Made by a program: the position numbers and the translations under genes. A stretch of 64,000 nt of DNA, from the sequence record MN850645.1; one strand, 5' to 3'. The DNA comes from Escherichia phage outra. Under the pieces are notes generated by a model. That model had not been told where the DNA came from. It searched no databases and was given only the letters and a program-made list of their open reading frames with translations. Shown here piece after piece: positions 5,422-19,400 of the stretch. Positions within the stretch are counted from its first letter, which is position 1, and each line of letters opens with the position of its first letter.

Positions 5422-5430
5422 AATAACTCC

Positions 5431-5994
5431 TTAAATAATTTTATTCATGTCTTGACAATGTAAAAGGTGTGAAATAGCTTTTCTAGGATCATCATTACCT
5501 AAACGGTATGTGTGAAATAAATATAACCCACGTAGTAAACCTAGCCTTTTATTGTTAGCGTGCAATGCTTTAGAGAAAATTATATCAAACTGTATTGATC
5601 TTTCCTCAAAAGGGATTTCATTCCACAGACTCTTACGAAAGAGAAGAAAGAATCCTGCTAAGATAGCATCTGTAGGTACTTCCTCTATTGAGTTTCCCCA
5701 TTCTAGATGTGCTCTTTTTGCAATCTCAATGTGGTGTAGTATATTCGGATCTTCACTTCTTTCATTATTAAATAATTGATATGTTGATCCCAATCTATTA
5801 CAAGATGCACCAAGAACATCAAAATCAGGATTTGAACGGACTATTGATTCCAGCCAAGCAGGTTGTTCTGGAAGAAGAAACATTGTATCAATGTCTCTTA
5901 GGCAAATCCAACTATCTTCTGGTAAGACACTTATTGTGTCATTGATACCTTTTCCAATATCTCCAGAAAGATAGGGAGTTATGTGAAATATCAT
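5431..5994 (-). CDS. hypothetical protein, possible second GT-A-like glycosyltransferase
   Basis: 187 aa; CLRDIDTMF acidic motif; GGAGGG RBS. Confidence 0.35.
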   Translation of the reverse strand: MIFHITPYLSGDIGKGINDTISVLPEDSWICLRDIDTMFLLPEQPAWLESIVRSNPDFDVLGASCNRLGSTYQLFNNERSEDPNILHHIEIAKRAHLEWGNSIEEVPTDAILAGFFLLFRKSLWNEIPFEERSIQFDIIFSKALHANNKRLGLLRGLYLFHTYRLGNDDPRKAISHLLHCQDMNKII

Positions 5995-6051
5995 ACTCCC
6001 TCCGTATTATTACTTTAGCATTTTTAGACTAAAAAGTCTAAATGGTTTTAC

Positions 6052-6246
6052 CTATTGATTACGTTTTGCGAGTTCCATTTGGATAGCTAAACTGTGATCT
6101 CGTGCTTCCATATACTCTTTATACGTTTCATTAAGATGATCACGACAAACATCACGCAGTTTAATCAATTTATCTGTAGGGATACCACTAAGATCATCCC
6201 AAGATTTTACAACTTCGCCAGTATCATTGATCCCAATGGTTTTCAT
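6052..6246 (-). CDS. hypothetical small protein
   Basis: 64-aa ORF in operon context. Confidence 0.35.
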   Translation of the reverse strand: MKTIGINDTGEVVKSWDDLSGIPTDKLIKLRDVCRDHLNETYKEYMEARDHSLAIQMELAKRNQ

Positions 6247-6454
6247 CTACAACCTCCTTAATTGCTACAGCACAGTTTTTGCAGATACACTGCCCTTTAC
6301 CTTTAGAAATCTGGATGTAAGGTTCATTTTCATTTTCGCCCTTACGTGAGTCATATATTACAGAATTGAAGCACACAACGCAAATATTTTTTAAGATTGT
6401 ATACTTATCAACTTTCTTTTTTGTTTTAAAGTTAACTTCAATAACATCAGCCAT
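6224..6454 (-). CDS. small Cys-rich (zinc-ribbon-like) protein
   Basis: CVVCF...CICKNC motif; start at Met overlapping upstream stop (ATGA-type coupling). Confidence 0.4.
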   Translation of the reverse strand: MADVIEVNFKTKKKVDKYTILKNICVVCFNSVIYDSRKGENENEPYIQISKGKGQCICKNCAVAIKEVVDENHWDQ

Positions 6455-6732
6455 CAGTGTAACACTCCCAGTATGTTGCTTTGTGACATAACCATAGAAC
6501 ATTCAACATTATCGTGACTACGTGAAAAACGTTCCCAAACATCTTCATCGACTCGTAAAGCTATACAAGGATAGACGTTATCATTGATCATTTCAATTGA
6601 ATAAACATCCATATTGTCTTCGTCTTCGATGAACATCATTGCAAACTGTTCTAAATGTTTCCTAATGTAATGTACATCCTCTTCTGTAAGACCAATAACA
6701 AGATAACTTGCAACGATAACGCCATCTTTCAT
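6454..6732 (-). CDS. hypothetical protein
   Basis: 92-aa ORF. Confidence 0.4.
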   Translation of the reverse strand: MKDGVIVASYLVIGLTEEDVHYIRKHLEQFAMMFIEDEDNMDVYSIEMINDNVYPCIALRVDEDVWERFSRSHDNVECSMVMSQSNILGVLH

Positions 6733-6742
6733 CTATATCTCC

Positions 6743-7252
6743 TTAGCGATAGAATTGATGTTCTTTGTAGCGGTACACTAGAACCATATCTTTTTCCCAG
6801 TGTGCTCTTATTGTAGATTTTTTAAAGTATAATGCTCCTTTTGTAATATCTAATGCAATTCGTAATTCTGGAAAATGCGTATCGAGATAAAGTAGACGTT
6901 CTGCTATAGTCTTAGCTTCCTTCCACTTATCACGTTCCATAACGTTGAATGTCTTTGTGTAAGAGAATTGTCCTTTTTGAAACAAAACTTCTTTTATAGT
7001 ATCAGGGAAATATGAATCTCTAGCCCTATTCAATACTACATTACCAACAGCAGACATACCTCGCTTTCCTTGATTACGACTTTCTGCATAGATTGCACAA
7101 GCTAATAGATTTTCTTTACTATCACGCTTTGTACACTTGTGAACTACTTTAGCAGTTTTTACGTTTGCAGCTTCGGCTTGCGCCACAACAGGTGTAAATG
7201 TAAAAGCAGTTAAGGATAGTAACGCAATTGCGACAAAGGTTTTTATTGACAA
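6743..7252 (-). CDS. SleB/CwlJ-like cell wall hydrolase with N-terminal signal peptide
   Basis: 169 aa; hydrophobic N-terminus ending AQA; LACAIYAESRNQG...AVGNVVLNRA matches Hydrolase_2 core. Confidence 0.65.
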   Translation of the reverse strand: MSIKTFVAIALLSLTAFTFTPVVAQAEAANVKTAKVVHKCTKRDSKENLLACAIYAESRNQGKRGMSAVGNVVLNRARDSYFPDTIKEVLFQKGQFSYTKTFNVMERDKWKEAKTIAERLLYLDTHFPELRIALDITKGALYFKKSTIRAHWEKDMVLVYRYKEHQFYR

Positions 7253-7344
7253 ACTTGCCTCCTATTTTGTTAAACGAACTTTTATTGTAACACAGAAGAG
7301 GCTGTTTTGCAAGTGGAGGGGGATTATCCCCCTCTTACACCCTG

Positions 7345-7947
7345 TTAGATGTTGTAAACCTTTGTATGAGTTACTACACCATCTTCTACAAAATCAATAC
7401 GTTCTTGATCCGTAACTAGTGCAGACAATACTTTAAATTTAATTGTTACACGTTCAAAAGCTGGTTGACCATCTTTAAGATAATTATGTTCAGTTGTTAC
7501 TGTCTTGTTTACAAAATCAACTTTTGCTTTACCGTTTTCACGCAAGTGGAATGTTTTTCCTGCTTTATACACAATTTCAACATTACCTTCGAGAGTAATT
7601 CCTTCAAAAAGTTCACCCTCTTCTTCATTTTCTTCACTTTTGAACAGACGACGAAACTCTTCCATATCAAGATAAACAACATCTTCAGAATAACTATCAG
7701 TAAGGTATGTCTTACCATCCATTAACCCGAAATATTGCCAGATCGCAGAATAAACATCACTAGTTGATCCAAGGGTTTCTCTGAGTTTAGTTCCACGGAT
7801 TACTTCATAAACTTCAAAATTGAAACCAGACTGCAAAGCATTAAACAGTACATCACTAACTTCTAAAGCATAATCTTCATTGTTGTCAATATCCACAAGA
7901 AAATTACCGCTGCGAATAAGTTTTTGACCTTCTAAAGTAATACCCAT
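7345..7947 (-). CDS. hypothetical protein
   Basis: 200-aa ORF. Confidence 0.45.
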   Translation of the reverse strand: MGITLEGQKLIRSGNFLVDIDNNEDYALEVSDVLFNALQSGFNFEVYEVIRGTKLRETLGSTSDVYSAIWQYFGLMDGKTYLTDSYSEDVVYLDMEEFRRLFKSEENEEEGELFEGITLEGNVEIVYKAGKTFHLRENGKAKVDFVNKTVTTEHNYLKDGQPAFERVTIKFKVLSALVTDQERIDFVEDGVVTHTKVYNI

Positions 7948-7974
7948 TGTTTTCTCCTCTTCTATTTAAAATAT

Positions 7975-7990
7975 GCGCCCCGAAGGGCGC
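7975..7990 (-). terminator. hairpin downstream of terD
   Basis: gcgccccgaagggcgc followed by atatttt on minus strand. Confidence 0.5.
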
Positions 7991-7999
7991 TATGATTTA

Positions 8000-8596
8000 T
8001 TACTCGAACCAATCGTCGCCAGCGCCAAACGCTTTAACTACATCATAAATGTCAAGTCCAGCTTTACCTACACCATATGCTTTCAGTTTCCATTCGCTAT
8101 CTTCCCGCACCAGGGAGGCAACGTGGCAAATGGTATTACCTGCAAGTTCTGGAGCCAAGAAGTCAAAATCCAGCAGTTCAACGTTACGTTCATCATCGAA
8201 GATTTTAAGGAAACCTTCGGTAGCGTGACCAAGGCGTTTCTTACCCGTTTCGTCATCAATAGTGATTACGAATGCAATTTCCTGTGCTTCAGCAGAGATA
8301 TTATCCAGTGTAACATCAATCTGCTCCATTTGTCCTACACCGTCACGAACATCTTCACCTGCAAAAGTAGAACGTTCAGGATCAAATTTCTGTGCGTAGC
8401 ATACCAGGTGGCGAGGAGACAACAGTTCCGGCAGACCAGATGCATTGTGTCGGCAAATCAGAGCACTAACATCCAGATCCAGTTTTTCGTTAGATTTCCA
8501 AGAGAATTCCAGACGAATGCGTTTCAGTGCTGGTGCAATCTTTTTCAGAGAAACTTTTTCGCTAGAACCTTTTTTCAGGGAAATTTTCTGAGTCAT
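8000..8596 (-). CDS. terD: TerD-family protein
   Basis: 198 aa; KISLKKG...VSLKK N-terminus, DLDVSAL, GEDVRDG, EIAFVITI, EWKLKAYG match TerD architecture; AAGGAG RBS. Confidence 0.8.
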   Translation of the reverse strand: MTQKISLKKGSSEKVSLKKIAPALKRIRLEFSWKSNEKLDLDVSALICRHNASGLPELLSPRHLVCYAQKFDPERSTFAGEDVRDGVGQMEQIDVTLDNISAEAQEIAFVITIDDETGKKRLGHATEGFLKIFDDERNVELLDFDFLAPELAGNTICHVASLVREDSEWKLKAYGVGKAGLDIYDVVKAFGAGDDWFE

Positions 8597-8668
8597 AATT
8601 TATTATCTCCTTTGTTGTTAATTTACGTTGTCTATTTTACTAATCTTTTCTACAAAGTCAAGCGTTTT

Positions 8669-9463
8669 TTACGCTTTTGCTCCAAATTTTTTAACCCACT
8701 CGCCAAACTCTTCGGATAGCAGTTTATCGTAAAGTTCTTCGTCAGACAAGGACAAATCTGCAATACCGATAAAATCAACGTTATCGTATTCTTTTGCCAA
8801 GTCTTTCAGGAATTTAAAGTTTGCATTACCTACACCAACCATAAACCAGTAAACAGGAGTGTTGCGGTGTTTGTTCAGCAAACTACGTACTGCTGAAGTA
8901 TCCATGTTCTCCCCGTCAGTTTGGAAGAAAATCATTGCAGGAGTACGATCAACTTGTGCATCAGTATCTACAACCTGTTCTACAACAGTACGTGTAACTT
9001 CTACACGTTCTTTTTTACCAGTTAGTTTAGCAAGGAAACCCTTAGCCGGAACTTCTTCATACTCAACGACTTCGCGTGTAATATTTTTCATAGGTACACT
9101 ACCGAAGTATGTATCATAGATCTCTTGCATTACTGGAGCATAAGCTGTACCACCATTGATGCAAACATTAGACATACAAGAGCCGACATAATCATCATAT
9201 ACATCAGCCGTTGCAGGAGGCAGTTCAAAAGAAGAACTATTGAAAGCCCACATGTCAATCTGTGCATTATCATCAAACTTCATACCAAACGGCAGTAGCT
9301 TACCTACAAAATCACTAACAGTGCCATCACGATACAGCTCACACATACTACCCGAAATATCTAAGGCGCTACCGACACGAAGAACAACATCGTTAATCTT
9401 TTTCTTACGCAGAGATACGGTAAGAGTTTCTTGACGTTTTTTAAGACTGATTTTATTGGACAT
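8669..9463 (-). CDS. vWA-domain protein with TerD-like N-terminal motif (TerY-like)
   Basis: 264 aa; N-terminal KISLKK, DISGSM (DxSxS MIDAS), FFQTDGEN; GGAG RBS. Confidence 0.55.
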   Translation of the reverse strand: MSNKISLKKRQETLTVSLRKKKINDVVLRVGSALDISGSMCELYRDGTVSDFVGKLLPFGMKFDDNAQIDMWAFNSSSFELPPATADVYDDYVGSCMSNVCINGGTAYAPVMQEIYDTYFGSVPMKNITREVVEYEEVPAKGFLAKLTGKKERVEVTRTVVEQVVDTDAQVDRTPAMIFFQTDGENMDTSAVRSLLNKHRNTPVYWFMVGVGNANFKFLKDLAKEYDNVDFIGIADLSLSDEELYDKLLSEEFGEWVKKFGAKA

Positions 9464-9464
9464 A

Positions 9465-9734
9465 TTATTTCTCCTTTCTGAGTGTAATGTTAGTAACTTC
9501 TAAATCCACTTCTACCATTTCTGTATCATACGAAATACAGCTAAGTTGACCTCTTTGCGAACCGTTCAGACACATTGCTTGGTTTGTATTAACTTTAATA
9601 AACACTAAGTTTCTGAACGTATCTAAACCAGAATCTTGATAGGCAACATAATATACAAATGTATCACCTACGTCAAGTTCTCCAAAACATTTAGGTTCAT
9701 CTGATTTGTCGTCTTTGATATTAAATTTAAGCAC
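9465..9734 (-). CDS. hypothetical protein
   Basis: 89-aa ORF. Confidence 0.4.
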   Translation of the reverse strand: MLKFNIKDDKSDEPKCFGELDVGDTFVYYVAYQDSGLDTFRNLVFIKVNTNQAMCLNGSQRGQLSCISYDTEMVEVDLEVTNITLRKEK

Positions 9735-10290
9735 TATCTCCTCCTTTACCTACTTTCCAACCTAAATAGAAAGCCTCTCTAGTGATTTTTTGCAACTCGT
9801 TTAAAGAGATAGTTACAACTAAATCATCTTCAATTTCTAGCTTTGAGTCTTCTTCTGTCTCAATGCAAGTATTATGCACTTTGTGGTAAGGATTGTCAAC
9901 ACGTTTAAATTTATTATTTTCAGTGTTGAAGAAGCAATCTGGATCTTCTTCTCCATCACCCCAACCCTGGTTAGGATCTTCTTCAGATCTTTCTGTTGGG
10001 ATCTCACCTGTAAAGTGCTCTTCTAATACCAGAGCAATCCCATCTCCAAGATCGGAAGAGAACATCAAATTACAAACTTCTTCCCAAGGCATAGACCACT
10101 TAAATCTTTTACGATTGCCATGTTTATCTTCTTCGTTAGAGAAAACACTACCATAGCTATCATAATTCCCATACATCTCTTCGACAACCTTACCACCTTT
10201 CAAAAGAAATAGGTAGCAAGGAGAGCCATCAAAAGAGGTAGAAAGAGCAGCATTACCAGACTCTTTGCACAAGAAACTAAAACACCCCAT
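9727..10290 (-). CDS. hypothetical acidic protein
   Basis: 187-aa ORF; C-terminal ELQKITREAFYLGWK motif also present in 10290..10490. Confidence 0.45.
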   Translation of the reverse strand: MGCFSFLCKESGNAALSTSFDGSPCYLFLLKGGKVVEEMYGNYDSYGSVFSNEEDKHGNRKRFKWSMPWEEVCNLMFSSDLGDGIALVLEEHFTGEIPTERSEEDPNQGWGDGEEDPDCFFNTENNKFKRVDNPYHKVHNTCIETEEDSKLEIEDDLVVTISLNELQKITREAFYLGWKVGKGGDSA

Positions 10291-10490
10291 TATACACCAG
10301 CCTTAAGATCAATTAAAGCCAAAGTTGTTTCAGAGTGTGTTTGCTCGTCTACAGGTGCAGTCATATGATAATACAAAAAATCTTCGGCATCATACCAATC
10401 TGATTCTTGACCTTGTTTCCAACCATCAATGAAAGCATCTTCCATAATGGTTTGCAATTCTTCACGAGTTAAGTGAATATCTTTACTCAT
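10290..10490 (-). CDS. hypothetical protein
   Basis: 66-aa ORF. Confidence 0.4.
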   Translation of the reverse strand: MSKDIHLTREELQTIMEDAFIDGWKQGQESDWYDAEDFLYYHMTAPVDEQTHSETTLALIDLKAGV

Positions 10491-10723
10491 TACACATTCT
10501 CCTCTTTTACCAATTCCATCGTTGAATTGTCAAAACCATCTTTAGAAGAATAGGTATAGACAGAACGTAGTTCTCGCAGGACAGTGAATACATTAGGATC
10601 ATCTAACCAAGCATCCTGGAGGAGAACATAACGATCTTCATTATCATACTGAACAGCAATCATAGAACCAGACAGTTTGTAAATTTTAATATTCATAATA
10701 TATTTCTCCTTAAAGTAGACCAC
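10490..10723 (-). CDS. hypothetical protein
   Basis: 77-aa ORF. Confidence 0.4.
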   Translation of the reverse strand: MVYFKEKYIMNIKIYKLSGSMIAVQYDNEDRYVLLQDAWLDDPNVFTVLRELRSVYTYSSKDGFDNSTMELVKEENV

Positions 10724-11813
10724 GTTTAACAGTTTGAATCATACCATCTTCAAGAGATTGCACTTCTTGAATGTAATCAATACGAGCAGCACGGGCTTCA
10801 GTGTTGATTCGGTTAGTTTCTTCCAACATTTTAACCAAGTTTTCTTGATCACGACGTAATGTTTCAATATCCAATACTTGACGATTAGCAAGTTGTGTAG
10901 CTTCAATTTGGTTTTGTGCAGCCAAATCACTACCCATTGCAATCGCAGCATTAAATTCATTTAGTACATTGTTCTGTGTATCGGCTGCTTTCTTCTGGCG
11001 TAGACTTTCAATATACATAGAAAAGTTTGCAGAGTAAGCAGGGATAACATTATTCACAATATTACGGGCTGATCGCATCAAACTTGCAGATACTTTCTGC
11101 ATACTTTGTACACGTGGCCCCATCTGAACACATAGTAAGCGTAAGGCTTTCAGGTCTGCAATACGAATTTCAAGCAGATCCATAGTATCACGAGTACGTT
11201 GACGCTCTTCTACCTCATTTTCAGGCAGTGTATTAAGGCGAATTTCTTCTTTTTCATAAGTAGCTGTTAGAAGCTCTATATCCCTGTTTAAACTAAGGGC
11301 ATATTTTGCAATAGCCTCTTCTAAACGTTGCAGATATCGTAAAGAATCTTCTTCTTTTTTCAAGTCTGTTTGGAGTGTCTTTACCAAACCTTCAATACGG
11401 TTATTGATGGTGTCAAATTCTCCAAACAAATCTTCTTTCATACCTAAAACTTTCTTAACTAGTTTACCTAAACCTTTAGATTGTTTAATAGAGTTAGGAT
11501 CAAGTTGCTTTGCTTGCTTAATAAGCGCAGTTAAACGTTCACTCATTTCATCTCCCTGAGATGAACGCTGGTGTTTAAGCACTTCAGCATTAAGGTTACG
11601 AAGAGTAAGTCCTGCATCAGCACCAACCTGTTCAATCTCTTCACGAGACATTGGAGGCAGCATTTGTACAGGTCGTGCAACAGCAGGGGCATATACAGGA
11701 CTTGCATCCATAGCAGTTGGAGCAAACAAAGACTTACTTTTTTCTGTTGTTGCCGTGAATACACTCATTTCAGACGGTTTGCTTTTTACGGCACTGATAA
11801 AAGGACTGGACAT
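10710..11813 (-). CDS. TelA-like (toxic anion resistance family) coiled-coil protein
   Basis: 367 aa, size and long coiled-coil profile fit TelA/KlaB; position inside ter-like cluster; GGAGG RBS. Confidence 0.45.
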   Translation of the reverse strand: MSSPFISAVKSKPSEMSVFTATTEKSKSLFAPTAMDASPVYAPAVARPVQMLPPMSREEIEQVGADAGLTLRNLNAEVLKHQRSSQGDEMSERLTALIKQAKQLDPNSIKQSKGLGKLVKKVLGMKEDLFGEFDTINNRIEGLVKTLQTDLKKEEDSLRYLQRLEEAIAKYALSLNRDIELLTATYEKEEIRLNTLPENEVEERQRTRDTMDLLEIRIADLKALRLLCVQMGPRVQSMQKVSASLMRSARNIVNNVIPAYSANFSMYIESLRQKKAADTQNNVLNEFNAAIAMGSDLAAQNQIEATQLANRQVLDIETLRRDQENLVKMLEETNRINTEARAARIDYIQEVQSLEDGMIQTVKRGLL

Positions 11814-11881
11814 TCAATTTCCTCCATATTCTTTAGTAGATGGTGATACTTCTATACCACCATCATAACACAAGTTAAGTA

Positions 11882-12733
11882 TTAAACAAACATATCTAAA
11901 TAATTTGTAGTAATAAATGCTCCATCTGCTTCCAGATTAACATAACCCGTGGTATTAGCAGTTAAGAAATCCAGATCGAAGGACTCTTTAACACCCCGTA
12001 CCTCAACACGAGAGATATCGAATACAGGTAGTGTAACAGCCTCTTCGTGCAATACCGTACCTTTGTAGGTTGCCTTAATGATAAACTTGATATTACCCGT
12101 TCCAGCATCATACAAAACACTTTCAAACCCTTTGAGAGTATATTTATCACCAGAAGTGAAGTGCAAAGTTGCTTTGTTTACAGTACGTTTTTTACGAGGA
12201 GTTCCTTTCACACGTTTATGATCACTACGTTTTTTGTATTTAGGAATGAATACAAACGATACACTCTCAAGAAAGGTATCAACATCAAGGATTTTAATAT
12301 CCTCTGTTGCAGCAAATTTTGAAGTCGTTGCATCAAAATGCTTTTCCCTGCGATCATACATAAAGATATCAAACCGATCTTCTAAATCAAACAAATTATG
12401 TATTTTAATTTCAGAATGCTTGCGCATTGCAGCAACCTTGAACTCTTCAAAACGTGGGTGTTCTACAAGTTCTTCAAGTTTTACACCAAAGACAGTATAT
12501 TGCTTCGAAGTCTTTTCTGGTGTTGGCATTACAGAAGCATAATCACCGATTGCGCTCTTAAAGCAAAATTGTTCTTGACCTGTATTTTTACCAACGAATT
12601 TACAGTATTCGTCATTGTGCATACTTTCCTTGGTAGTACCAACAAACTCAAAACCATCTTTATTCTTCTCAAGAATTTCTTGATTAAAGATCCAACCTTC
12701 CAGGCGATACACTTTACCAACTTCTAGTTTCAT
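11882..12733 (-). CDS. hypothetical protein
   Basis: 283-aa ORF. Confidence 0.45.
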   Translation of the reverse strand: MKLEVGKVYRLEGWIFNQEILEKNKDGFEFVGTTKESMHNDEYCKFVGKNTGQEQFCFKSAIGDYASVMPTPEKTSKQYTVFGVKLEELVEHPRFEEFKVAAMRKHSEIKIHNLFDLEDRFDIFMYDRREKHFDATTSKFAATEDIKILDVDTFLESVSFVFIPKYKKRSDHKRVKGTPRKKRTVNKATLHFTSGDKYTLKGFESVLYDAGTGNIKFIIKATYKGTVLHEEAVTLPVFDISRVEVRGVKESFDLDFLTANTTGYVNLEADGAFITTNYLDMFV

Positions 12734-12768
12734 CTGTTTCTCCTTCTTATTTAATCTGTATTAAATTA

Positions 12769-13374
12769 TTAACGACGACGTGAGCTACTAAAACTACGTT
12801 TCGACGAAGAATAACTTTTCGAAGACTTACTATAAGAGCTAATAGGACTTGAGTAAGACTTACGAGCAGAGTAATCACTATTCACTTTTGTTGTTGATGG
12901 GCGTGAATACGTTTGTACACTTTGCTGCTTAATTGTGTTTTGTTTAGTGGTTGTATATGTATTCCCTTGTTTATCATAAAACCTATGCTTTTGTGTTGTA
13001 TATGCTTTACTATTAGTTGTAGGAGCAGCGTTGTTATTGATAATTGTTGTATTGCTACCGCCATCTCTATAACCACCACCGCCACTATTACCACTCAACA
13101 TATGACCAAGAAGCATACCTGTAGCAAACTCACCTACGCCAGAAGAACCACTGCCGCCTCCTTGCACAACAACTGTTGAAGGTTGTGCAGGTGCTGCTTG
13201 AACAACTTGAGGTGCAGGCTGATTTACATATTGTTCATCTACCATCTGATTTGGTGTTTGTTGGTAACGTTGATTTTGTACATTTTCAGAATCATCACAA
13301 CCTACCAGCAATGCACTACCTAAAACAACTGCAACAATAAAAGATTTAATGTTTTTCATTTGTAACCCTCTCAT
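12769..13374 (-). CDS. lipoprotein with Gly-rich and S/Y/K-rich low-complexity C-terminus
   Basis: Signal peptide plus lipobox LLVGC; GGGSGSSG and SYSSPISSYSKSSKSYSSS tracts. Confidence 0.55.
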   Translation of the reverse strand: MRGLQMKNIKSFIVAVVLGSALLVGCDDSENVQNQRYQQTPNQMVDEQYVNQPAPQVVQAAPAQPSTVVVQGGGSGSSGVGEFATGMLLGHMLSGNSGGGGYRDGGSNTTIINNNAAPTTNSKAYTTQKHRFYDKQGNTYTTTKQNTIKQQSVQTYSRPSTTKVNSDYSARKSYSSPISSYSKSSKSYSSSKRSFSSSRRR

Positions 13375-13567
13375 TTAAAATCTCAACACAATTTTTAAAA
13401 TCCCTAGAGAAACAATACATCTGTTCTCCGTTCCTGTTGATAGTAATTGTATGGTTATCAATATATGTTGTCAAGATAAAAATCAAACAAAACAAACCTA
13501 GAGCAAAACAAATATTTTCAAACAGAATCCAAAGAACACGTAAAACCACCATCAGATCACCTCAATA

Positions 13568-13585
13568 AAGCCCCCGAAGGGGCTT
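13568..13585 (-). terminator. hairpin downstream of terC
   Basis: aagcccccgaaggggctt. Confidence 0.5.
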
Positions 13586-13591
13586 AATGAA

Positions 13592-14569
13592 TTAAGCAAC
13601 AGCCTGGTCTTCTTTTTCAGGGAAGATTAAACTTGCAAGAACACCCAGCCCAAGAGTACCTAACACAATATACATACTGATCGTCGGGTCAATGTGTGCT
13701 GGCAGGAAACTCACTTTTGCGTGCAGAGTTTCTGCAAACGGGTGATACATCAGTTTTACACCCACAAACACCAGGACTACGATAACTGCTTTCTCCAGAT
13801 GAACCAAATACTTCAGTGCAACACTAAGAACAAAGAACAGAGCACGTAAACCTAAGATTGCACAGAGCATCGAAGAGAACACCAGCAGAGGTTCTTGTGT
13901 CACTGCAATTACTGCTGGAACAGAGTCTACTGCAAAGATTACGTCAACCATTTCCATTACAAACACACAAACCAGAGCCGGAGTTGCTACACGAACACCA
14001 TTTTTGATTGTGAAGAACTTCTCACCATCCATCTGATCAGATACAGGGAACAGCTTACGAACAATGCGAGTAGCCCAGTGTTTAGAGTAATCAACTTCTG
14101 CATCATTATCTCCAGCGAATACCATTTTAGCCGCACAGAAAAGGATGACAGCACCGAAGAAGATATTAACATACCAGCCCAAACTCAACAAGTAAGTACC
14201 TACTGCTACAAACACACCTCGGAAGACAATCGCACCTGCAATACCCCAAAGTAGAATCTTGTGCTGCAAGTGTGTGCTTTTAATACCAAAACTTGCGAAT
14301 ACTGCTACAAATACTACTAAGTTATCTACAGAAAGAGATTTCTCCAACACATACCCACTCAAGAACAAGCTCGCAAAATCAGCACCGTGTTGGAAGTATA
14401 CAAAACCATAGTAGGCTAATGATACCCCAATCCAGAAAATTGACCAGCCAATTGCAGATTTAAATGAAATTTCTTTGTTTTCTCTGTGTCCAAAGAAGTC
14501 AATACAAATCGACAAGACTAAAATACCCACTAAAACAACCACATCAATAATTGGGAAACCCAGTTGCAT
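13592..14569 (-). CDS. terC: TerC-family integral membrane protein
   Basis: 325 aa, multiple TM segments, EKSLSVDNL hallmark; GAGGAG RBS. Confidence 0.8.
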   Translation of the reverse strand: MQLGFPIIDVVVLVGILVLSICIDFFGHRENKEISFKSAIGWSIFWIGVSLAYYGFVYFQHGADFASLFLSGYVLEKSLSVDNLVVFVAVFASFGIKSTHLQHKILLWGIAGAIVFRGVFVAVGTYLLSLGWYVNIFFGAVILFCAAKMVFAGDNDAEVDYSKHWATRIVRKLFPVSDQMDGEKFFTIKNGVRVATPALVCVFVMEMVDVIFAVDSVPAVIAVTQEPLLVFSSMLCAILGLRALFFVLSVALKYLVHLEKAVIVVLVFVGVKLMYHPFAETLHAKVSFLPAHIDPTISMYIVLGTLGLGVLASLIFPEKEDQAVA

Positions 14570-14646
14570 TCTTTTCTCCTCTTTAATGCGGAGGACAATC
14601 CTCCGCTCTATGTCTTATACTATAAACTGTTTTTAAAGAAAGTCAA

Positions 14647-14895
14647 CTAGTTCAGTTCTGTAATTTTAAGTTTATCTTCTTTGTTAATGACAGGGAAAGC
14701 TACAGCATCACCTACGTCATCAATAAAGCAAATAGCAAGACCACCTTCCACTTTGCTGATTTGACCATTAAAGGCGTGATACGGGGCAGGAACTTGATCT
14801 CCATCTTCAAGGAGAATAGCCTCGTAAACCTTGCCGATAGTACAATCACGAGTGTTTCTAAATTTTTCAAGCACTTCAACATTTACTTTACGCAT
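14647..14895 (-). CDS. hypothetical protein
   Basis: 82-aa ORF. Confidence 0.4.
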   Translation of the reverse strand: MRKVNVEVLEKFRNTRDCTIGKVYEAILLEDGDQVPAPYHAFNGQISKVEGGLAICFIDDVGDAVAFPVINKEDKLKITELN

Positions 14896-14909
14896 ATAAA
14901 AATCCTCTC

Positions 14910-15116
14910 TTATTTGTTAGATTGAAAGATACCACGAAGTACCGCAAGAATGAACGTCACACAGACTACACTCCAAAACGTTACAGGAACATGATGCCAG
15001 TCTAAGCCGATAATGTCAATCATATAGTTGTATGCTAAAAGCAGTAGCCAACTAGGGATTAACACAATCAAAAACACAACAATAAAACAACCTAATACTG
15101 CTAAAACACCTGCCAT
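14910..15116 (-). CDS. small membrane protein
   Basis: 68 aa, two hydrophobic segments. Confidence 0.4.
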   Translation of the reverse strand: MAGVLAVLGCFIVVFLIVLIPSWLLLLAYNYMIDIIGLDWHHVPVTFWSVVCVTFILAVLRGIFQSNK

Positions 15117-15125
15117 ACTTTCTCC

Positions 15126-15842
15126 TTATTTCAGTTTGTAAACAATTACATTTAAACCTTTGTTTACTAGAGTTTCTTCGATCATAAGTTTTACAATACT
15201 CCAAGAACCTCCAGCCAAACCACAACCAAGCATTGGTAAACCTACAATTTTACCGCCTGAAGATACAACATCGTCTCCCATACTATCTAACGCATTGTAG
15301 ATAGCTTCATAATTCAGGTCACGCTTACCTTCCTCACGACGACTATAACCATATTGTCCATATAAATTATAAATTGTCAAATTGTTTTCTATATATTTGG
15401 TAAACGTACCTAATTTTTTATAATCACCATGTTTAGTGGCACAATCTGCTTTAAACGCACCAGGCCACTTGCTTTTAATTTTTGGTGCAATACCACTACC
15501 CATAGTGCAAAAACAGTTACAGCAGTGTGCTATAGCGTCTATATCGCCTCTCTCGGCTGCTGCTAAAAGATCACCGTATACCTCAATGATACCTGCCGGA
15601 TAACTTGTTACAATTTCATCTTCCCAATACATTTTCTCTACACCACCGATCAGTGCAAAGTTTTGTGTAATGCGATCATCAATATAGTTAAGACCTGAAA
15701 CATACACAGCATATTCATCCTGTGCTGTAATACCTTGTACACGAATTCTTAAGACACCATCTTTATCTGTTGCTACACGCCCAAAATCTTTTTCTGTAAT
15801 ATTGGTGATAGGATCTCCGAAAGTCATTACTTTATTAGACAT
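15126..15842 (-). CDS. macro-domain protein (ADP-ribose binding/processing) with unknown N-terminal extension
   Basis: IAHCCNCFCTMGSGIA and GLPMLGCGLAGG resemble macro-domain glycine-rich loops; start placed at Met just after upstream stop. Confidence 0.55.
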   Translation of the reverse strand: MSNKVMTFGDPITNITEKDFGRVATDKDGVLRIRVQGITAQDEYAVYVSGLNYIDDRITQNFALIGGVEKMYWEDEIVTSYPAGIIEVYGDLLAAAERGDIDAIAHCCNCFCTMGSGIAPKIKSKWPGAFKADCATKHGDYKKLGTFTKYIENNLTIYNLYGQYGYSRREEGKRDLNYEAIYNALDSMGDDVVSSGGKIVGLPMLGCGLAGGSWSIVKLMIEETLVNKGLNVIVYKLK

Positions 15843-16692
15843 AATAATCCCCTTTAACATTAGATTTGTTGATAATGTTGCTTTCAAAAAATTGACGTAG
15901 GAAATCAAAGTTCTCTTTATATTTTTCAATGTTATTGTAGCCTTCTGCAAGGCAACCAAAGAACAGTTGTTCTACATAATACAAAGGAAGCTGTGAAAGT
16001 GCAATTTTAAAATCAACTTCGCTTTGACTCATTAGATACTTAATAGGACGAACCAAACATTTAGCATCAGTTTCTTGTTTAATCATTTTAATAAAAGCTG
16101 CCAGGTTATTGATATAGTTGAAGTTAAGTGCAGCTTCGGTATTGGCTTCTGTACCTTCATACTTTGCAAAGTACAGGAAAAACGTATCGTTTTCAACACC
16201 TTCTTTGTCTAAAATTTCAATAAGTTTTTCTTCGTGCGTTCCTGTAATATTAACATCATCAATGAAAATCAGAGTTTTATTACCCCAGAAATCACGATTG
16301 ATAGAGAAAGTGTCACCATCGATCAAAGCCTTACGATCTTCTTTGCTAAGAAATCCATAATCATTGATATAGCTCACTTTACGATGAACGATATCCCACT
16401 CCACTGCTTTACCTCCTTTGATAGAGATTAGGTAGTTGAGGTGATCTACAAAATGTTCAGATAACACTGTAGCTGCATTTTTCACATAGTTATATGGAGA
16501 TGGAATAACAACAAAACTTTCATTTACCAGTCGTTCTTCATACTTGGAAAAGAAACTTTCAGCCAGAATGCGCCCCATTCTTTTTGCTGCCTGGTTACTA
16601 CCAAACTTTAGCTTGGAATAATCTGCAATGTTAAATTTTGCTTCCTTCAGGTTAGTAAAAGTATTAGCAAAATGTTGAATTTGATTACGCAT
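15835..16692 (-). CDS. phosphoribosyltransferase (PRTase type I)-like protein
   Basis: 285 aa; TLIFIDDVNITGTH resembles the PRPP-binding motif. Confidence 0.5.
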   Translation of the reverse strand: MRNQIQHFANTFTNLKEAKFNIADYSKLKFGSNQAAKRMGRILAESFFSKYEERLVNESFVVIPSPYNYVKNAATVLSEHFVDHLNYLISIKGGKAVEWDIVHRKVSYINDYGFLSKEDRKALIDGDTFSINRDFWGNKTLIFIDDVNITGTHEEKLIEILDKEGVENDTFFLYFAKYEGTEANTEAALNFNYINNLAAFIKMIKQETDAKCLVRPIKYLMSQSEVDFKIALSQLPLYYVEQLFFGCLAEGYNNIEKYKENFDFLRQFFESNIINKSNVKGDYYV

Positions 16693-17341
16693 TAATAAGT
16701 TCCTCTTTTTTAAGTTTAGCCAACAAGTCTTCTGGATTAATAATATGACAGAACTTCATCCCTATGTCAACAGCTTTTCCATCATAGATCAAACTATCTC
16801 CAACGTGTAAGATCTCCTCTGGTGCGAGATCAAACGTTACCATTTCATCAAAAGAGAGTTTAAAAAACCTAGGATCTGGTTTACACAAGCAAAACTCGTC
16901 AGAAAAATGCATAAAGTCGAATGGTAATTTTGTCAAGCCAGAATATACAGCTAAAAAACTACCAGGTACAAAATTAGTATTGCTTTTAATACTCAAAGAA
17001 TAGGTTGAACTTAGCTCTTCCAACTTCTTGCAAAGTTCAGGGTTTAATGTTGGAGGATGTTTTATAAACATTGCTAAACAGTCTCTTTTTAACCCATCTA
17101 CTTTATCAAGATCAATGTTCAAACGAGCAGAAAGTGTTTCCCAAGCATTTCTAGATGTTCCACAAATGCCTTTTTCTGCTTTTAAATCCAGGAGAGTTTT
17201 TACCTCTTTATATACGGTAGCTGCTTCTACCTCAGAACAAGAGGCATACTCGGCAATAACCTTGTTGCGTTCTTCTGCATACAAAGGATTAGCAGTAATA
17301 AGAGTATTCCATACATCAAAAGAAATATGCTTAACAGTCAT
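16685..17341 (-). CDS. HAD-superfamily hydrolase-like protein
   Basis: ISFDVWNTL (motif I-like) and HVGDSLIYDGKAVDIG (motif IV-like); start at Met with GGAGG RBS. Confidence 0.5.
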   Translation of the reverse strand: MTVKHISFDVWNTLITANPLYAEERNKVIAEYASCSEVEAATVYKEVKTLLDLKAEKGICGTSRNAWETLSARLNIDLDKVDGLKRDCLAMFIKHPPTLNPELCKKLEELSSTYSLSIKSNTNFVPGSFLAVYSGLTKLPFDFMHFSDEFCLCKPDPRFFKLSFDEMVTFDLAPEEILHVGDSLIYDGKAVDIGMKFCHIINPEDLLAKLKKEELINA

Positions 17342-17510
17342 TTTTAATCCTCCGTCCAAAAGAATATCATCTGCTTAATTTTATTGATCTCTTGATGTAG
17401 TAACTTTCCAGCATGTGATTGATCTTTAATATTGACAGCAAGAATTTCAAGTTCCGTTAGTTTTTCTTGGATAGCTTTATATTCATCATCTGTAAGCATT
17501 TTCTTCCCCT

Positions 17511-17714
17511 TTAGAATGGTAATCTTTGTATGTCACTTATCCCCACACCAAGAAGTCTAGCAATATCCTTATCTAAAAGCAACTCTTTTTGTTCTAAAAT
17601 GTTAATCAGATCTCCTAATACTTCTTTAATGTCACGATCATTTTTAGCAACGTGACCACCTGCGGTATCAACTTTATCTTTAAAAACAAAATAATGATCC
17701 ATAATACCCTCCAT
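17511..17714 (-). CDS. hypothetical protein
   Basis: 67-aa ORF. Confidence 0.35.
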   Translation of the reverse strand: MEGIMDHYFVFKDKVDTAGGHVAKNDRDIKEVLGDLINILEQKELLLDKDIARLLGVGISDIQRLPF

Positions 17715-17715
17715 A

Positions 17716-17748
17716 CAAATAAAGGAGGCTTTCGCCTCCTTTTATCAC
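17716..17748 (-). terminator. bidirectional-looking hairpin terminator downstream of 17749..18909
   Basis: ggaggctttcgcctcc with T-tracts on both sides. Confidence 0.55.
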
Positions 17749-18909
17749 TTAGTAAGAACGACCACCAAACACATACTCTGTGTAGTTTTTACGTTCTTTG
17801 TTTTTAATAACAACTTCAATGTTGTTACCTTTATCATCGGTGAACATAAAGTGATAACCGTCACCGCCCATTGTACGGATGTGTTTTTCATCATACGTCA
17901 GCAAGATACGGTCTACACCCCAGTAGTAGTCACCTTCTTCGTCTTTATCTTCTACGGTAACGACTCCTTCCATTTCAGGAAGATGCTCTTCTCCTAGCTT
18001 ATGGTCTACAGCTACAACATAACGATTACCGCTAAACAAACCCTGTGCTGTCATACCGTCAATATCGGTATCTGCCGAAACATCTCCTGTACGATCTACA
18101 CCGTTAACTTTCAGAAGTTTAACTTCTTTTGCAGCATAGCGGTGTTCAGTAATACTGATACCCATTAATGCAAGTGCATCAGAGAATTTGTCATTAGGGT
18201 AACGGTTAAGTTCTTCTACTAATGACTGAACAATATCAAAGTTCAAGTCCACGGACAGATTATAAAGCGTTTCAAAATCTGGTAAAAAGGCTTTGTTCTC
18301 CAGATTTTTAGCCAGATAATCATCCATAGTAGCTTTAGGTAGTTTCTTATAGCTAAAGCTGTAGAAAATACGGCTAGGGCGATTACGCAAAAATTCTGAT
18401 ACATAACCATCATTTTTAGTCAATACAAACAGCTTGTCATAGCCACCAACACCATCCAGCAGGGTAAGCAAACCATCCTGTGCATCTTTTTCAGCATACA
18501 GTTTATCAAATTCATCGATCATAATCATCACAGGTTGTGTGATTTTAGACATAAAATTGATAAAGCCTTCACCATTAAAAGCACTACCGATAGAAATAGT
18601 AGGAATACCCATTTCACGAAGAGCAGAAGACAGCATTTTAGCTTGCAAAGTTTTACCGCTACCCTTCGTACCCTCAAGGAGAACACCTGTGTTTTTACCT
18701 TTGCGGCTAAGGAACGTCTTGATAATACGTTCTGATTTATCATCAGTATCACCGTATGTTACTGAAGGGACTTCCATATCGTTTTTAGGATACAGGAAGA
18801 ACTCGCCACTTTGAGTAACACCTACACCAAAAGTTCCTGCTGGAATTTCTTCAATATCTGTACCAGACTTCTGACGCAGGAAGATTTGATTGCCGAATAC
18901 TGTAAACAT
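17749..18909 (-). CDS. AAA+ family ATPase, paralog A
   Basis: 386 aa; Walker A GTKGSGKT, Walker B IMIDEFDKL; paralog of 33477..34604; GGAG RBS. Confidence 0.75.
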   Translation of the reverse strand: MFTVFGNQIFLRQKSGTDIEEIPAGTFGVGVTQSGEFFLYPKNDMEVPSVTYGDTDDKSERIIKTFLSRKGKNTGVLLEGTKGSGKTLQAKMLSSALREMGIPTISIGSAFNGEGFINFMSKITQPVMIMIDEFDKLYAEKDAQDGLLTLLDGVGGYDKLFVLTKNDGYVSEFLRNRPSRIFYSFSYKKLPKATMDDYLAKNLENKAFLPDFETLYNLSVDLNFDIVQSLVEELNRYPNDKFSDALALMGISITEHRYAAKEVKLLKVNGVDRTGDVSADTDIDGMTAQGLFSGNRYVVAVDHKLGEEHLPEMEGVVTVEDKDEEGDYYWGVDRILLTYDEKHIRTMGGDGYHFMFTDDKGNNIEVVIKNKERKNYTEYVFGGRSY

Positions 18910-18929
18910 AGTTTTCTCCTCTATTTAAT

Positions 18930-19400
18930 TTAGTCAGATTCCCAAATGTTGTCTTTCTTAACCCACATTCGTTGATTATCTGAACCTCTATAACGTTTCG
19001 TTGTTGGTTGAGTCATATCATACTTACCATCTATTACTATGTCAACCAGTTTTTTAATTTTCTCTGGAATTTCTTCAAAAAGATATCCTGTATATAAGAC
19101 AATATCTTTTTTGTTTCTAAAACAATCTCTTACCTTCTCAAGAACATACTCTACAGTGTCAATGTTCTCTTTGTCAAGAGGTTCACCACCTAAAACTGTT
19201 AATCCTTTAATGAAAGGTCGAGATAAATCTTTCAAGATAAGATCTAATGTTTCAGTAGTGAACTCTTGTCCGTAGTTATACGACCAGGCTTTCTGGTTAA
19301 AGCAGCCACGGCAACCGTGGCTACAACCGCTCACCCACAAAGAGCATCTTACACCATCACCGTTGAGCATGTCAACAGGTTCATATCCGGCGTAATTCAA
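18930..19400 (-). CDS. nrdG: anaerobic ribonucleotide reductase activating protein (radical SAM)
   Basis: 156 aa; CSHGCRGC radical-SAM cluster motif; overlaps nrdD stop. Confidence 0.85.
   Translation of the reverse strand: MNYAGYEPVDMLNGDGVRCSLWVSGCSHGCRGCFNQKAWSYNYGQEFTTETLDLILKDLSRPFIKGLTVLGGEPLDKENIDTVEYVLEKVRDCFRNKKDIVLYTGYLFEEIPEKIKKLVDIVIDGKYDMTQPTTKRYRGSDNQRMWVKKDNIWESD

What the first reader, a model, noticed from the sequence alone, without database searches (positions are those of the whole stretch)
8000..17341. Phage-borne ter-like module: TerD, TerD-like vWA protein, TelA-like, TerC plus macro, PRTase-like and HAD-like enzymes
Within 9.4 kb on one strand the phage carries a TerD-family protein, a vWA protein whose N-terminus repeats the TerD KISLKK motif, a TelA-sized coiled-coil protein, a TerC membrane protein (EKSLSVDNL), and a contiguous macro / PRTase-like / HAD-like trio. 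Ter-family proteins have been reported in bacteria together with PRTase and HAD phosphatase partners and proposed to make a nucleoside-like metabolite; finding the set in a lytic-phage replication block suggests either phage-directed production of a modified nucleotide or nucleoside, or a membrane and ion-stress takeover function. The macro domain hints that an ADP-ribose-like intermediate is involved.
Basis: partly seen in the sequence, partly recalled or inferred. Interest (0 to 1): 0.85.

Follow-up and report, generated by a model that had tools for sequence, protein, structure and literature searches.

The report
Known phage copy of Ter system
This stretch of a phi92-like E. coli phage really does carry a compact version of the bacterial "tellurite-resistance" (Ter) stress system plus a nucleotide-making enzyme pair, but the cluster is already annotated and discussed in the literature, and what it does for the phage is still untested.

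Summary
Window 8000-17341 is 100% identical to Escherichia phage vB_EcoM_ESCO8 (Justusliebigvirus, phi92 gp172-gp187). All genes lie on the minus strand: TerD, vWA-TerF-like, TelA, TerC (Alx subfamily), a macro domain, PRTase_3 (ComF-like) and a HAD hydrolase. All pass the curated Pfam cut-offs.

HAD sits directly upstream of PRTase_3 in every phage and bacterial locus I checked. TerD, vWA, TelA and TerC recur next to that pair, in shuffled order, in several unrelated large phages. That gives a six-gene core.

The macro domain is not part of this core. It is a T4 Tk.4-type gene found in about 2975 phage records, against 156 for PRTase_3, and it is adjacent to PRTase_3 only in this subfamily. 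The DNA-modification reading is disfavoured, because phi92-like phages are reported as highly restriction-sensitive.

The cluster is already known. The phi92 ter cluster has been noted in print, and Iyer et al. 2021 described phage Ter systems with PRTase and HAD and proposed superinfection exclusion.

The most likely function is an early-expressed, membrane-proximal, cation-dependent envelope and exclusion device with a small-molecule ligand. This is inferred, not shown. Interest is low to moderate.

The parts
8000..8596 (-). TerD-domain protein (phi92 gp172), 198 aa
   Evidence: Pfam TerD E=5e-28. Aligns end to end with Klebsiella TerD 2kxt, E=9e-15. The DLD motif is kept, but the acidic Ca-binding motif is degenerate: GEDVRDGVGQMEQ against GDNRTGEGDGDDE.
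8634..8661 (-). sigma-70-like promoter match in the gap upstream of TerD (TTGACT-16-TAAAAT)
   Evidence: Consensus scan, 10 of 12 positions matched. This is a pattern match only.
8669..9463 (-). vWA-TerF-like protein (gp173), 264 aa, with a TerD-like N-terminal KISLKK strand motif and MIDAS DISGS
   Evidence: Pfam vWA-TerF-like E=7e-39. Motifs located.
9465..10723 (-). four ORFs of unknown function (gp174 89 aa, gp175 187 aa, gp176 66 aa, gp177 77 aa); conserved within the subfamily and probably not Ter components
   Evidence: No Pfam hits. The gp175 family occurs in 48 IMG/VR loci, and 46 of them have no Ter gene nearby. gp175 gives no fold match.
10710..11813 (-). TelA-family protein (gp178), 367 aa
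   Evidence: Pfam TelA E=8e-34 covering 57-362. PHROG 5890 'tellurite resistance'. No relative with a solved structure.
11882..13552 (-). variable insert: gp179 (283 aa, unknown), gp180 (predicted lipoprotein, lipobox LLVGC), gp181 (68 aa, hydrophobic)
   Evidence: No Pfam hits. Only partly conserved in Phapecoctavirus.
13592..14569 (-). TerC/Alx-type integral membrane protein (gp182), 325 aa
   Evidence: Pfam TerC E=1e-38. TIGR03718 Alx subfamily, 323 bits above the 246 cut-off. E76/D82 and E206/D209/D215 match, by motif and spacing, the five acidic residues needed for Mn2+ export by E. coli Alx.
14588..14646 (-). sigma-70-like promoter (TTGACT-16-TATAGT) followed by a 5'-UTR hairpin GCGGAGGAttgTCCTCCGC and a Shine-Dalgarno site, just ahead of TerC
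   Evidence: No riboswitch or other Rfam family found.
14647..15116 (-). two small ORFs (gp183 82 aa; gp184 68 aa, hydrophobic)
   Evidence: No Pfam hits. gp184 is conserved in Phapecoctavirus.
15126..15842 (-). macro-domain protein (gp185): a lineage-specific N-terminal ~85 aa followed by a Tk.4/TARG1-class macro domain
   Evidence: Pfam Macro E=1.6e-6. Closest PDB entries are 5e3b SCO6735, 2fg1 BT1257 and TARG1. TARG1 K84 and D125 are replaced by Q and A. Matches the DarG macro domain at E~1e-13, far below the equivalog cut-off. Most homologues are about 150 aa and stand alone.
15835..16692 (-). PRTase_3 (ComF-like type I phosphoribosyltransferase; gp186), 285 aa
16685..17341 (-). HAD-superfamily hydrolase (gp187), 218 aa, obligate upstream partner of PRTase_3
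   Evidence: Pfam Hydrolase, 27.0 bits against 26.4. PDB 2om6 E=4.6e-9. Invariant S-x-D-x-W-x-T-L, SN, K and GDxxxxD motifs, with Trp at the D+2 position. Adjacent to PRTase_3 in every locus examined.
7975..7990 (-). GC-rich hairpin directly downstream of TerD (terminator-like)
17721..17742 (-). terminator-like hairpin upstream of the block, between the AAA ATPase and gp189
   Evidence: Also annotated as a terminator in phage Paula.

Best explanation
This is the phage-borne form of the bacterial Ter stress and phage-inhibition system.

Composition. The conserved core has six genes: TerD, a TerF-type vWA protein, TelA, an Alx-type TerC, and the HAD plus PRTase_3 enzyme pair.

Proposed working (inferred).
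- The block is transcribed early by host RNA polymerase from sigma-70-like promoters.
- TerC inserts into the inner membrane and moves Mn2+ or another divalent cation out of the cytoplasm.
- TerD, the MIDAS-bearing vWA protein and coiled-coil TelA assemble beneath the membrane in a cation-dependent way.
- PRTase_3 joins an unidentified base to PRPP. The HAD enzyme then processes the product into a nucleoside-like ligand for this assembly.
- The net effect is an altered envelope and ion state in the infected cell. That state shuts out superinfecting phages and colicins, or keeps the envelope intact until lysis.

Other genes. The macro-domain gene is a separate, widespread Tk.4-type ADP-ribose-processing accessory gene that happens to sit next to the pair in this subfamily. 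The small intervening ORFs are lineage-specific.

What is shown and what is inferred. Shown here: the family identities, the conserved catalytic, transport and MIDAS motifs, and the recurrent linkage. Inferred: expression timing, the complex, the ligand and the phenotype.

For: Transport. The five acidic residues required for Alx Mn2+ export are conserved in the phage TerC and in all 16 module TerCs. The vWA protein has a MIDAS DISGS motif.

Linkage.
- HAD lies directly upstream of PRTase_3 in all 42 phage and bacterial loci that carry PRTase_3.
- TerD, vWA, TelA and TerC flank that pair in shuffled orders in L075, L081, L089, L083, L084, L087, L088 and L079. They also do so in Bacteroidota (L007, L021, L022).
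- Among IMG/VR and isolate-phage loci, Ter genes lie within 10 kb in 5 of 14 non-Stephanstirmvirinae PRTase_3 loci, against 0 of 46 control phage loci (Fisher p about 4e-4, my calculation).

Expression. Promoter-like sites sit before TerC and TerD, and hairpins bracket the block.

Literature.
- Iyer et al. 2021 describe the same components in phages and propose use against superinfecting phages.
- Two phage papers cite Whelan et al. 1995 for ter genes in colicin and phage resistance.
- Klebsiella TerC gives tolerance to envelope-active agents.
Against: No experiment exists on any phage ter gene. Two papers state that the function during infection is unknown.

Several sequence features are non-canonical.
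- TerD in this subfamily has a degenerate acidic Ca-binding motif.
- The HAD enzyme lacks the usual D+2 general acid/base Asp, which is an invariant Trp here. 'Phosphatase' is therefore an assumption.

Linkage is not universal. Ten PRTase_3-HAD phage loci have no Ter gene within 10 kb. In CcrColossus and XaC1 the Ter genes lie far from the pair.

Other gaps. PADLOC defence models give no hit for the Ter proteins. Promoter matches in the region are not enriched over shuffled sequence: 42 found against 35.5 +/- 5.7 expected.
Confidence: 0.45

Rival explanations
1. Pure metal and ion housekeeping gene set. TerC/Alx exports Mn2+ (or moves Ca2+/Zn2+), and TerD, vWA and TelA buffer or sense cations. 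The aim is to keep the infected cell's metal balance right for phage enzymes such as the adjacent anaerobic ribonucleotide reductase. There is no exclusion or defence role.
For: The TerC is an Alx-subfamily member with all five Mn-export residues. TerC is the most widely distributed component on its own in small phages such as Vibrio, Proteus, Pectobacterium and Aeromonas phages. The block sits next to nrdD and nrdG. TerD and vWA are metal-binding folds.
Against: It does not explain the obligate PRTase_3-HAD pair or TelA. The Mn riboswitch that controls host alx is absent. The TerD Ca-binding motif is degenerate here. In Klebsiella, TerC was dispensable for resistance to metal stress.
Confidence: 0.25
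2. Counter-defence metabolite pathway. PRTase_3 and HAD, helped by the macro domain, make or recycle an NAD/ADP-ribose-like or otherwise unusual nucleotide or nucleoside. That molecule either neutralises host immune signalling or NAD depletion, or modifies phage nucleic acid. The Ter proteins would be secondary.
For: The macro domain overlaps the 3' end of PRTase_3 in both Stephanstirmvirinae genera. Single instances of related enzymes sit beside PRTase_3 elsewhere: a Nudix in Rhizobium phage L003, a cytidylyltransferase-like protein in L084, and macro domains 7-8 kb away in XaC1 and L075. The macro domain's best defence-related match is the DarG ADP-ribosyl glycohydrolase domain.
Against: Macro adjacency is confined to one lineage, and its family is about 20 times more widespread than PRTase_3. 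Each accessory neighbour is seen only once. PRTase_3 is a type I ComF/HGPRT-like fold. phi92-like phages are very restriction-sensitive, which argues against protective DNA modification. The macro domain lacks the TARG1 catalytic Lys and Asp, and scores 48 bits against a DarG cut-off of 250.
Confidence: 0.12
3. No joint function. The genes are unrelated accessory genes ('morons') kept together only by descent within one phage subfamily.
For: About half of the 9.4 kb is lineage-specific ORFs of unknown function. TerC shows signs of independent exchange: it is 95% identical to the TerC of some Phapecoctavirus phages but 71% identical to most.
Against: The same six families cluster together, in different orders, in several unrelated phage lineages and in bacteria. 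That pattern is not expected from descent alone.
Confidence: 0.08

Closest known systems
Phage Ter systems described by Iyer, Anantharaman, Krishnan, Burroughs & Aravind 2021 (PMC7824862), such as Acinetobacter phage vB_AbaM_ME3 and the Caulobacter jumbo phages; also the ter genes reported in phiPsa374 and phiKp34
   Same: The component list is the same: TerD, TerC, TerF-type vWA, TelA, and in ME3 also PRTase and HAD. They occur in virulent phages and the function is untested.
   Different: Here the host phage is about 148 kb, not a jumbo phage. The block carries extra lineage-specific ORFs and an adjacent Tk.4-type macro gene. PRTase_3-HAD is contiguous with the Ter genes, whereas in CcrColossus they are about 28 kb apart.
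phi92 gp172-gp187, the same genes in the type phage; Schwarzer et al. 2012 as cited in PMC11162368
   Same: About 98% nucleotide identity over the whole block. The cluster has already been called 'alx-like ter cluster genes' of unknown function.
   Different: Nothing of substance. The window is 100% identical to ESCO8, a sister isolate.
Bacterial Ter loci with the PRTase_3-HAD pair, such as the Hymenobacter monticola plasmid (L007) and the Tannerella MAG (L021)
   Same: The HAD then PRTase_3 pair has overlapping ORFs and sits beside TerD paralogues and a TerC/DUF475 membrane protein.
   Different: The bacterial loci carry several TerD paralogues plus the TerY vWA, PP2C phosphatase and kinase triad, and no TelA or TerF-type vWA within 10 kb. 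The phage has a single TerD, TelA and a TerF-type vWA, and no kinase or phosphatase.
terZABCDEF operon of IncHI2 plasmids and E. coli O157 / Klebsiella (tellurite, phage and colicin resistance)
   Same: TerC-, TerD- and TerF-type domains. The bacterial operon has phage-inhibition, colicin-resistance and envelope-stress phenotypes.
   Different: No TerB, TerA, TerZ or TerE paralogues were found in the phage block. The phage TerC is of the Alx subfamily and shows only about 69% DNA identity over about 20% of the gene to E. coli terC. phiPsa374's authors argued that such partial sets are unlikely to give tellurite resistance.
E. coli Alx (TerC family Mn2+ exporter)
   Same: Subfamily model passed. 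E-x5-D and E-x2-D-x5-D acidic motifs are conserved.
   Different: There is no yybP-ykoY riboswitch. Instead there is a sigma-70-like promoter and a simple 5'-UTR hairpin. Transport has not been tested.
T4 Tk.4 / SCO6735 / BT1257 / TARG1-class macrodomains
   Same: Sequence similarity E=1e-15 to 1e-10 over the whole macro fold, with a GCGLAGG phosphate loop. Annotated as tk.4-like in Phapecoctavirus.
   Different: It has an extra N-terminal domain of about 85 aa that is specific to Justusliebigvirus. The TARG1 catalytic K84 and D125 are Q and A, as in SCO6735 and BT1257.

Membership tests
Ter system core (TerD + TerC + TelA + TerF-type vWA) | All four Pfam families present and clustered on one strand | tested here: met
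   PF02342, PF03741, PF05816 and PF10138 are all far above their gathering scores within 6.6 kb.
Ter system core (TerD + TerC + TelA + TerF-type vWA) | Linkage conserved in independent lineages rather than inherited synteny only | tested here: met
   The same families occur in shuffled order in L075/L081/L089, L083, L084, L087 and L088.
Ter system core (TerD + TerC + TelA + TerF-type vWA) | Confers tellurite, colicin or phage resistance | not testable with these tools
   No experiment is available. The literature states that the function in phages is unknown.
Ter-associated biosynthetic module | PRTase with an intact PRPP-binding loop, paired with a HAD-fold enzyme | tested here: met
   PF15610 E=1e-41. 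DDVxITGTHE is invariant. ComF-like fold. HAD is directly upstream in all loci.
Ter-associated biosynthetic module | The HAD partner is a canonical phosphatase (DxD motif I) | tested here: not met
   Motif I is DxW with an invariant Trp at D+2 in all seven orthologues aligned. The nucleophile Asp and motifs II-IV are present.
Ter-associated biosynthetic module | Extended version with ATP-grasp and aldolase-like enzymes (recalled from Anantharaman et al. 2012, which could not be read here) | tested here: not met
   No such Pfam domains in any ORF of the block. This is the simple two-enzyme version.
terZABCDEF tellurite-resistance operon | TerB and multiple TerD paralogues (TerZ/A/E) | tested here: not met
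   There is a single TerD domain protein and no TerB hit among the 20 ORFs scanned.
TerC/Alx subfamily (TIGR03718) | Score above the curated cut-off, plus the acidic transmembrane residues needed for Mn2+ export | tested here: met
   322.9 bits against 246.4. E76, D82, E206, D209 and D215 match the E86/D92/E213/D216/D222 pattern.
TerC/Alx subfamily (TIGR03718) | yybP-ykoY Mn2+ riboswitch in the leader | tested here: not met
   No Rfam match at E<=1 in 7000-19500. The leader is about 50 nt with one hairpin.
DarG antitoxin (DNA ADP-ribosyl glycohydrolase) | Equivalog score and a C-terminal DarT-binding domain | tested here: not met
   48 bits against a cut-off of 250. Only the macro part matches (positions 4-147 of 338).
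TARG1/OARD1-type macrodomain hydrolase | Macro fold with the catalytic Lys84/Asp125 dyad | tested here: not met
   Fold-level similarity E=4e-10, but K84 aligns with Q and D125 aligns with A. It groups instead with SCO6735 and BT1257.
TerY-P or other catalogued anti-phage defence systems (PADLOC) | Match to PADLOC models | tested here: not met
   No hits for TerD, vWA, TelA, TerC, PRTase_3 or HAD. Only the macro domain matches, to DarG.

The most novel reading that the evidence does not exclude
The six-gene phage core (TerD, TerF-vWA, TelA, Alx-type TerC, DxW-type HAD, PRTase_3) is a self-contained, early-expressed device. Its enzyme pair makes the long-sought Ter 'nucleoside-like' ligand, possibly an NAD/ADP-ribose-related riboside. 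That possibility rests on macro, Nudix and nucleotidyltransferase neighbours, each seen once in different phages. The ligand would switch a sub-membrane TerD-vWA-TelA-TerC assembly that blocks entry of rival phages and colicins or counters membrane-collapsing host defences. The E. coli phi92-like phages would then be the minimal, genetically tractable system in which to identify that metabolite and the Ter mechanism.
Probability: 0.2. Interest if true: 0.65.

Novelty: already known. Interest (0 to 1): 0.3.

Why it matters
The Ter system is widespread in pathogens and has been linked to tellurite, colicin and phage resistance since the 1990s. Even so, its mechanism and its predicted small-molecule product are still unknown.

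A compact six-gene version in a culturable, engineerable coliphage is a convenient test bed, and phi92-like phages are in the BASEL collection. If it is a phage-encoded exclusion or envelope-hardening device, that would bear on the design of phage cocktails, because these phages are common therapy candidates. It would also bear on how the bacterial Ter system works.

As a genome-scan finding it adds little. The genes are already annotated and the hypothesis is already in print.

Tried and rejected
1. A riboswitch or other structured RNA ahead of TerC. Rfam gave no match at E<=1; only a simple hairpin is present.
2. gp175 as a new Ter component. It is highly conserved and models confidently. 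However, it has no fold relatives, and 46 of 48 viral loci carrying it have no Ter, PRTase or HAD gene nearby. Rejected.
3. Macro as an integral member of the pathway. Rejected on distribution.
4. Recent capture of TerC from the host. Only about 69% identity over about 20% of the gene to E. coli terC.
5. A catalogued defence system. PADLOC gave no hits apart from the macro-to-DarG match.
6. Extra Ter domains such as TerB in the small ORFs. None found.
7. Close bacterial relatives of PRTase_3.
   - The genome scan found only 15 loci, mostly Rhizobiaceae, with the HAD-PRTase pair alone.
   - Most of the 45-50% identical homologues that I looked up turned out to be phage contigs.
8. Sources and tools that were unavailable.
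   - The primary Ter paper (Anantharaman et al. 2012) and the phi92 paper (Schwarzer et al. 2012) are not held, so their content is cited only second-hand.
   - The afdb50 fold library was not available.
   - The look-up of encoding contigs failed seven times before it answered.

Full report
**What the window is.** Positions 8000-17341 are 100% identical to Escherichia phage vB_EcoM_ESCO8. They are 98-99% identical to some fifty other Justusliebigvirus (phi92-like) genomes. The genes correspond to phi92 gp172-gp187. In various records they are already annotated as 'putative stress / toxic anion resistance protein', 'membrane bound tellurium resistance protein', 'putative orotate phosphoribosyltransferase', 'putative macrodomain protein' and 'phosphatase/hydrolase'.

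**Checking the observation.**
- TerD: 8000-8596, E=5e-28.
- vWA-TerF-like: 8669-9463, E=7e-39.
- TelA: 10710-11813, E=8e-34.
- TerC: 13592-14569, E=1e-38.
- Macro: 15126-15842, E=1.6e-6.
- PRTase_3: 15835-16692, E=1e-41.
- HAD: 16685-17341, just above Pfam's cut-off. It is supported by a 4.6e-9 match to the HAD protein 2om6 and by conserved HAD motifs.

The KISLKK motif shared by TerD and the vWA protein is real. The vWA protein has an intact MIDAS DxSxS motif. The three enzyme ORFs overlap by 8 nt each.

About half of the 9.4 kb consists of nine further ORFs with no Pfam family. PHROG places each in a family with no known function. No TerB or additional TerD paralogue is present.

**Closer look at the parts.**
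- HAD. Its HAD partner keeps the nucleophile Asp and motifs II-IV, but has an invariant Trp where phosphatases carry the D+2 acid/base Asp. It resembles PH0253/2om6 in this respect. 'Phosphatase' is therefore an assumption.
- TerC. It passes the NCBIfam Alx-subfamily model with 323 bits against a cut-off of 246. It keeps the E-x5-D and E-x2-D-x5-D acidic residues, which were shown to be needed for Mn2+ export by E. coli Alx (PMC10197570). It lacks the Mn riboswitch. Instead it has a TTGACT-16-TATAGT promoter match and a short 5'-UTR hairpin.
- TerD. It aligns end to end with Klebsiella TerD. In this phage subfamily the acidic Ca-binding motif is degenerate: GEDVRDGVGQMEQ against GDNRTGEGDGDDE. 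Other phage and bacterial TerDs keep it.
- Macro. It belongs to the TARG1/SCO6735/BT1257 class. The TARG1 catalytic Lys and Asp are replaced by Gln and Ala. Its match to DarG covers the macro part only and is far below the equivalog cut-off.

**Which genes belong together.** I compared PRTase_3 loci from several sources.
- Isolate phages.
- Plasmids.
- GTDB genomes.
- IMG/VR.
- Metagenome contigs.

I searched them with iterated profiles built from the window proteins.

A HAD gene of the same family lies directly upstream of PRTase_3 in every locus. Hosts range from Caulobacter, Rhizobium and Xanthomonas phages to Rhizobiaceae and Bacteroidota.

TerD, vWA-TerF, TelA and TerC lie within 10 kb of that pair in Stephanstirmvirinae. 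They also do so, in different gene orders, in a distant relative (L079) and in at least four other uncultivated large-phage lineages: L075/L081/L089, L083, L084, L087 and L088. L084 has a divergent TelA that only Pfam detected. In bacteria the same is seen in a Hymenobacter plasmid and in Bacteroidota MAGs.

As a control I used 46 unrelated phage loci, those carrying the gp175 family. None has a Ter gene within 10 kb, against 5 of 14 non-Stephanstirmvirinae PRTase_3 loci from IMG/VR and isolate phages. Fisher's exact test gives p of about 4e-4 (my calculation).

All-against-all clustering of ORFs in these modules found exactly six families shared across lineages: HAD, PRTase_3, TerD, TerC, vWA-TerF and TelA. 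These six are the functional core.

**The macro domain is not part of the core.** It follows PRTase_3 only in the two Stephanstirmvirinae genera. Its family, T4 Tk.4-like, is found in about 2975 phage records. The counts for the others are 156 for PRTase_3, 147 for TerD, 176 for TerC and 245 for TelA.

Weak, single-instance hints in the same direction do exist. A Nudix gene follows PRTase_3 in a Rhizobium phage. A cytidylyltransferase-like gene follows it in L084. Macro genes lie 7-8 kb away in XaC1 and L075. I treat these as leads only.

**What is already known.**
- Iyer et al. 2021 (PMC7824862) describe Ter components in jumbo 'and certain other related smaller tailed phages'. [quoted passage not shown] They propose use against superinfecting phages.
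- A 2024 paper states that phi92 and its relative vKMB37 'carry alx-like ter cluster genes' of unknown function.
- Similar partial sets are reported for phiPsa374 and phiKp34.
- I found no experimental work on any phage ter gene.
- The founding Ter paper and the phi92 genome paper could not be read here.

**Most likely mechanism (inferred).** The block is transcribed early from host-type promoters. An Alx-type TerC changes divalent-cation flux at the inner membrane. TerD, the MIDAS vWA protein and TelA form a cation-dependent assembly beneath the membrane. PRTase_3 and HAD make a nucleoside-like ligand from PRPP. The outcome is either exclusion of rival phages and colicins or increased envelope tolerance.

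This matches the phenotypes reported for bacterial ter operons and for Klebsiella TerC. I am about 95% confident in the identity of the module and about 35-45% confident in this mechanism.

**Rival explanations.**
- Pure metal housekeeping. This does not explain the enzyme pair or TelA.
- A counter-defence or DNA-modifying metabolite. This is disfavoured by the macro distribution and by the reported strong restriction sensitivity of phi92-like phages (PMC8594841).
- No joint function. This is contradicted by the recurrent, reshuffled linkage.

**Verdict.** What this analysis adds:
- a delimitation of the six-gene core;
- the invariant HAD then PRTase_3 coupling;
- the non-canonical DxW motif of the HAD enzyme;
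- conservation of the Alx export residues in the absence of the riboswitch;
- exclusion of macro and gp175 from the module.

Novelty: already known. Interest: 0.3.

Noticed in passing
[not shown]
   Followed up: yes
window 10290-10490 (-), gp176, and the C-terminus of gp175: The 66-aa gp176 repeats the C-terminal motif of gp175 (LQxIxxxAFxxGWKxG). This suggests duplication of a small helical tail module.
   Followed up: no
window 14588-14646 (-): A near-consensus sigma-70-type promoter (TTGACT-16-TATAGT) is followed by a perfect 8-bp hairpin, GCGGAGGAttgTCCTCCGC, in the TerC leader. One arm of the hairpin is Shine-Dalgarno-like and the other anti-Shine-Dalgarno-like. There is no Rfam match. 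The record for phage Paula annotates it as a plus-strand terminator.
   Followed up: partly
window 12769-13374 (-), gp180: Predicted lipoprotein (lipobox LLVGC) with a Gly- and Ser-rich tail, located between TelA and TerC. Partial homologues are present in Phapecoctavirus and in the distant relative L079.
   Followed up: partly
window 13592-14569 (-), TerC: TerC is about 95% identical to the TerC of a subset of Phapecoctavirus phages (Mt1B1_P17, P3322, BI-EHEC) but about 71% identical to most members of that genus. This indicates recent exchange of this one gene between the two genera.
   Followed up: no
GenBank MG065645, MG065656, MG065689, MG065639 ('Campylobacter phage A145, C3, A110a, A150'): These records, labelled as Campylobacter jejuni phages, are essentially identical to phi92-like coliphages across the block. 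They are probably mislabelled or contaminant assemblies.
   Followed up: no
window 16685-17341 (-), HAD; also L002-L007 orthologues: The HAD partner of PRTase_3 has an invariant Trp at the D+2 position of motif I (S-x-D-x-W-x-T-L) instead of the catalytic Asp found in HAD phosphatases. The same is seen in Pyrococcus PH0253 (2om6).
   Followed up: partly
window 8000-8596 (-), TerD: The 13-residue acidic Ca-binding motif of TerD (GDNRTGEGDGDDE in Klebsiella) is degenerate in Stephanstirmvirinae (GEDVRDGVGQMEQ). It is retained in other phage and bacterial TerDs from PRTase_3 loci.
   Followed up: partly
L079:10838-11782, L084:10841-11926, L003:5834-6406, L005:12941-14527, L083:8813-9256; window 22254-22688 (-): The genes immediately next to PRTase_3-HAD vary between phages. 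They include an SPFH/Band-7 protein, a cytidylyltransferase-like protein, a Nudix hydrolase and a DUF2828/DUF7788 protein. In L083 a YqeY-like protein is inserted between TelA and HAD. A YqeY-like gene also lies about 5 kb upstream in the window.
   Followed up: partly
window 4735-7252 (-): Directly downstream of the block lie a signal-peptide SleB/CwlJ-type cell-wall hydrolase and a run of glycosyltransferase-like genes. These are syntenic in Phapecoctavirus and in the distant relative L079.
   Followed up: no
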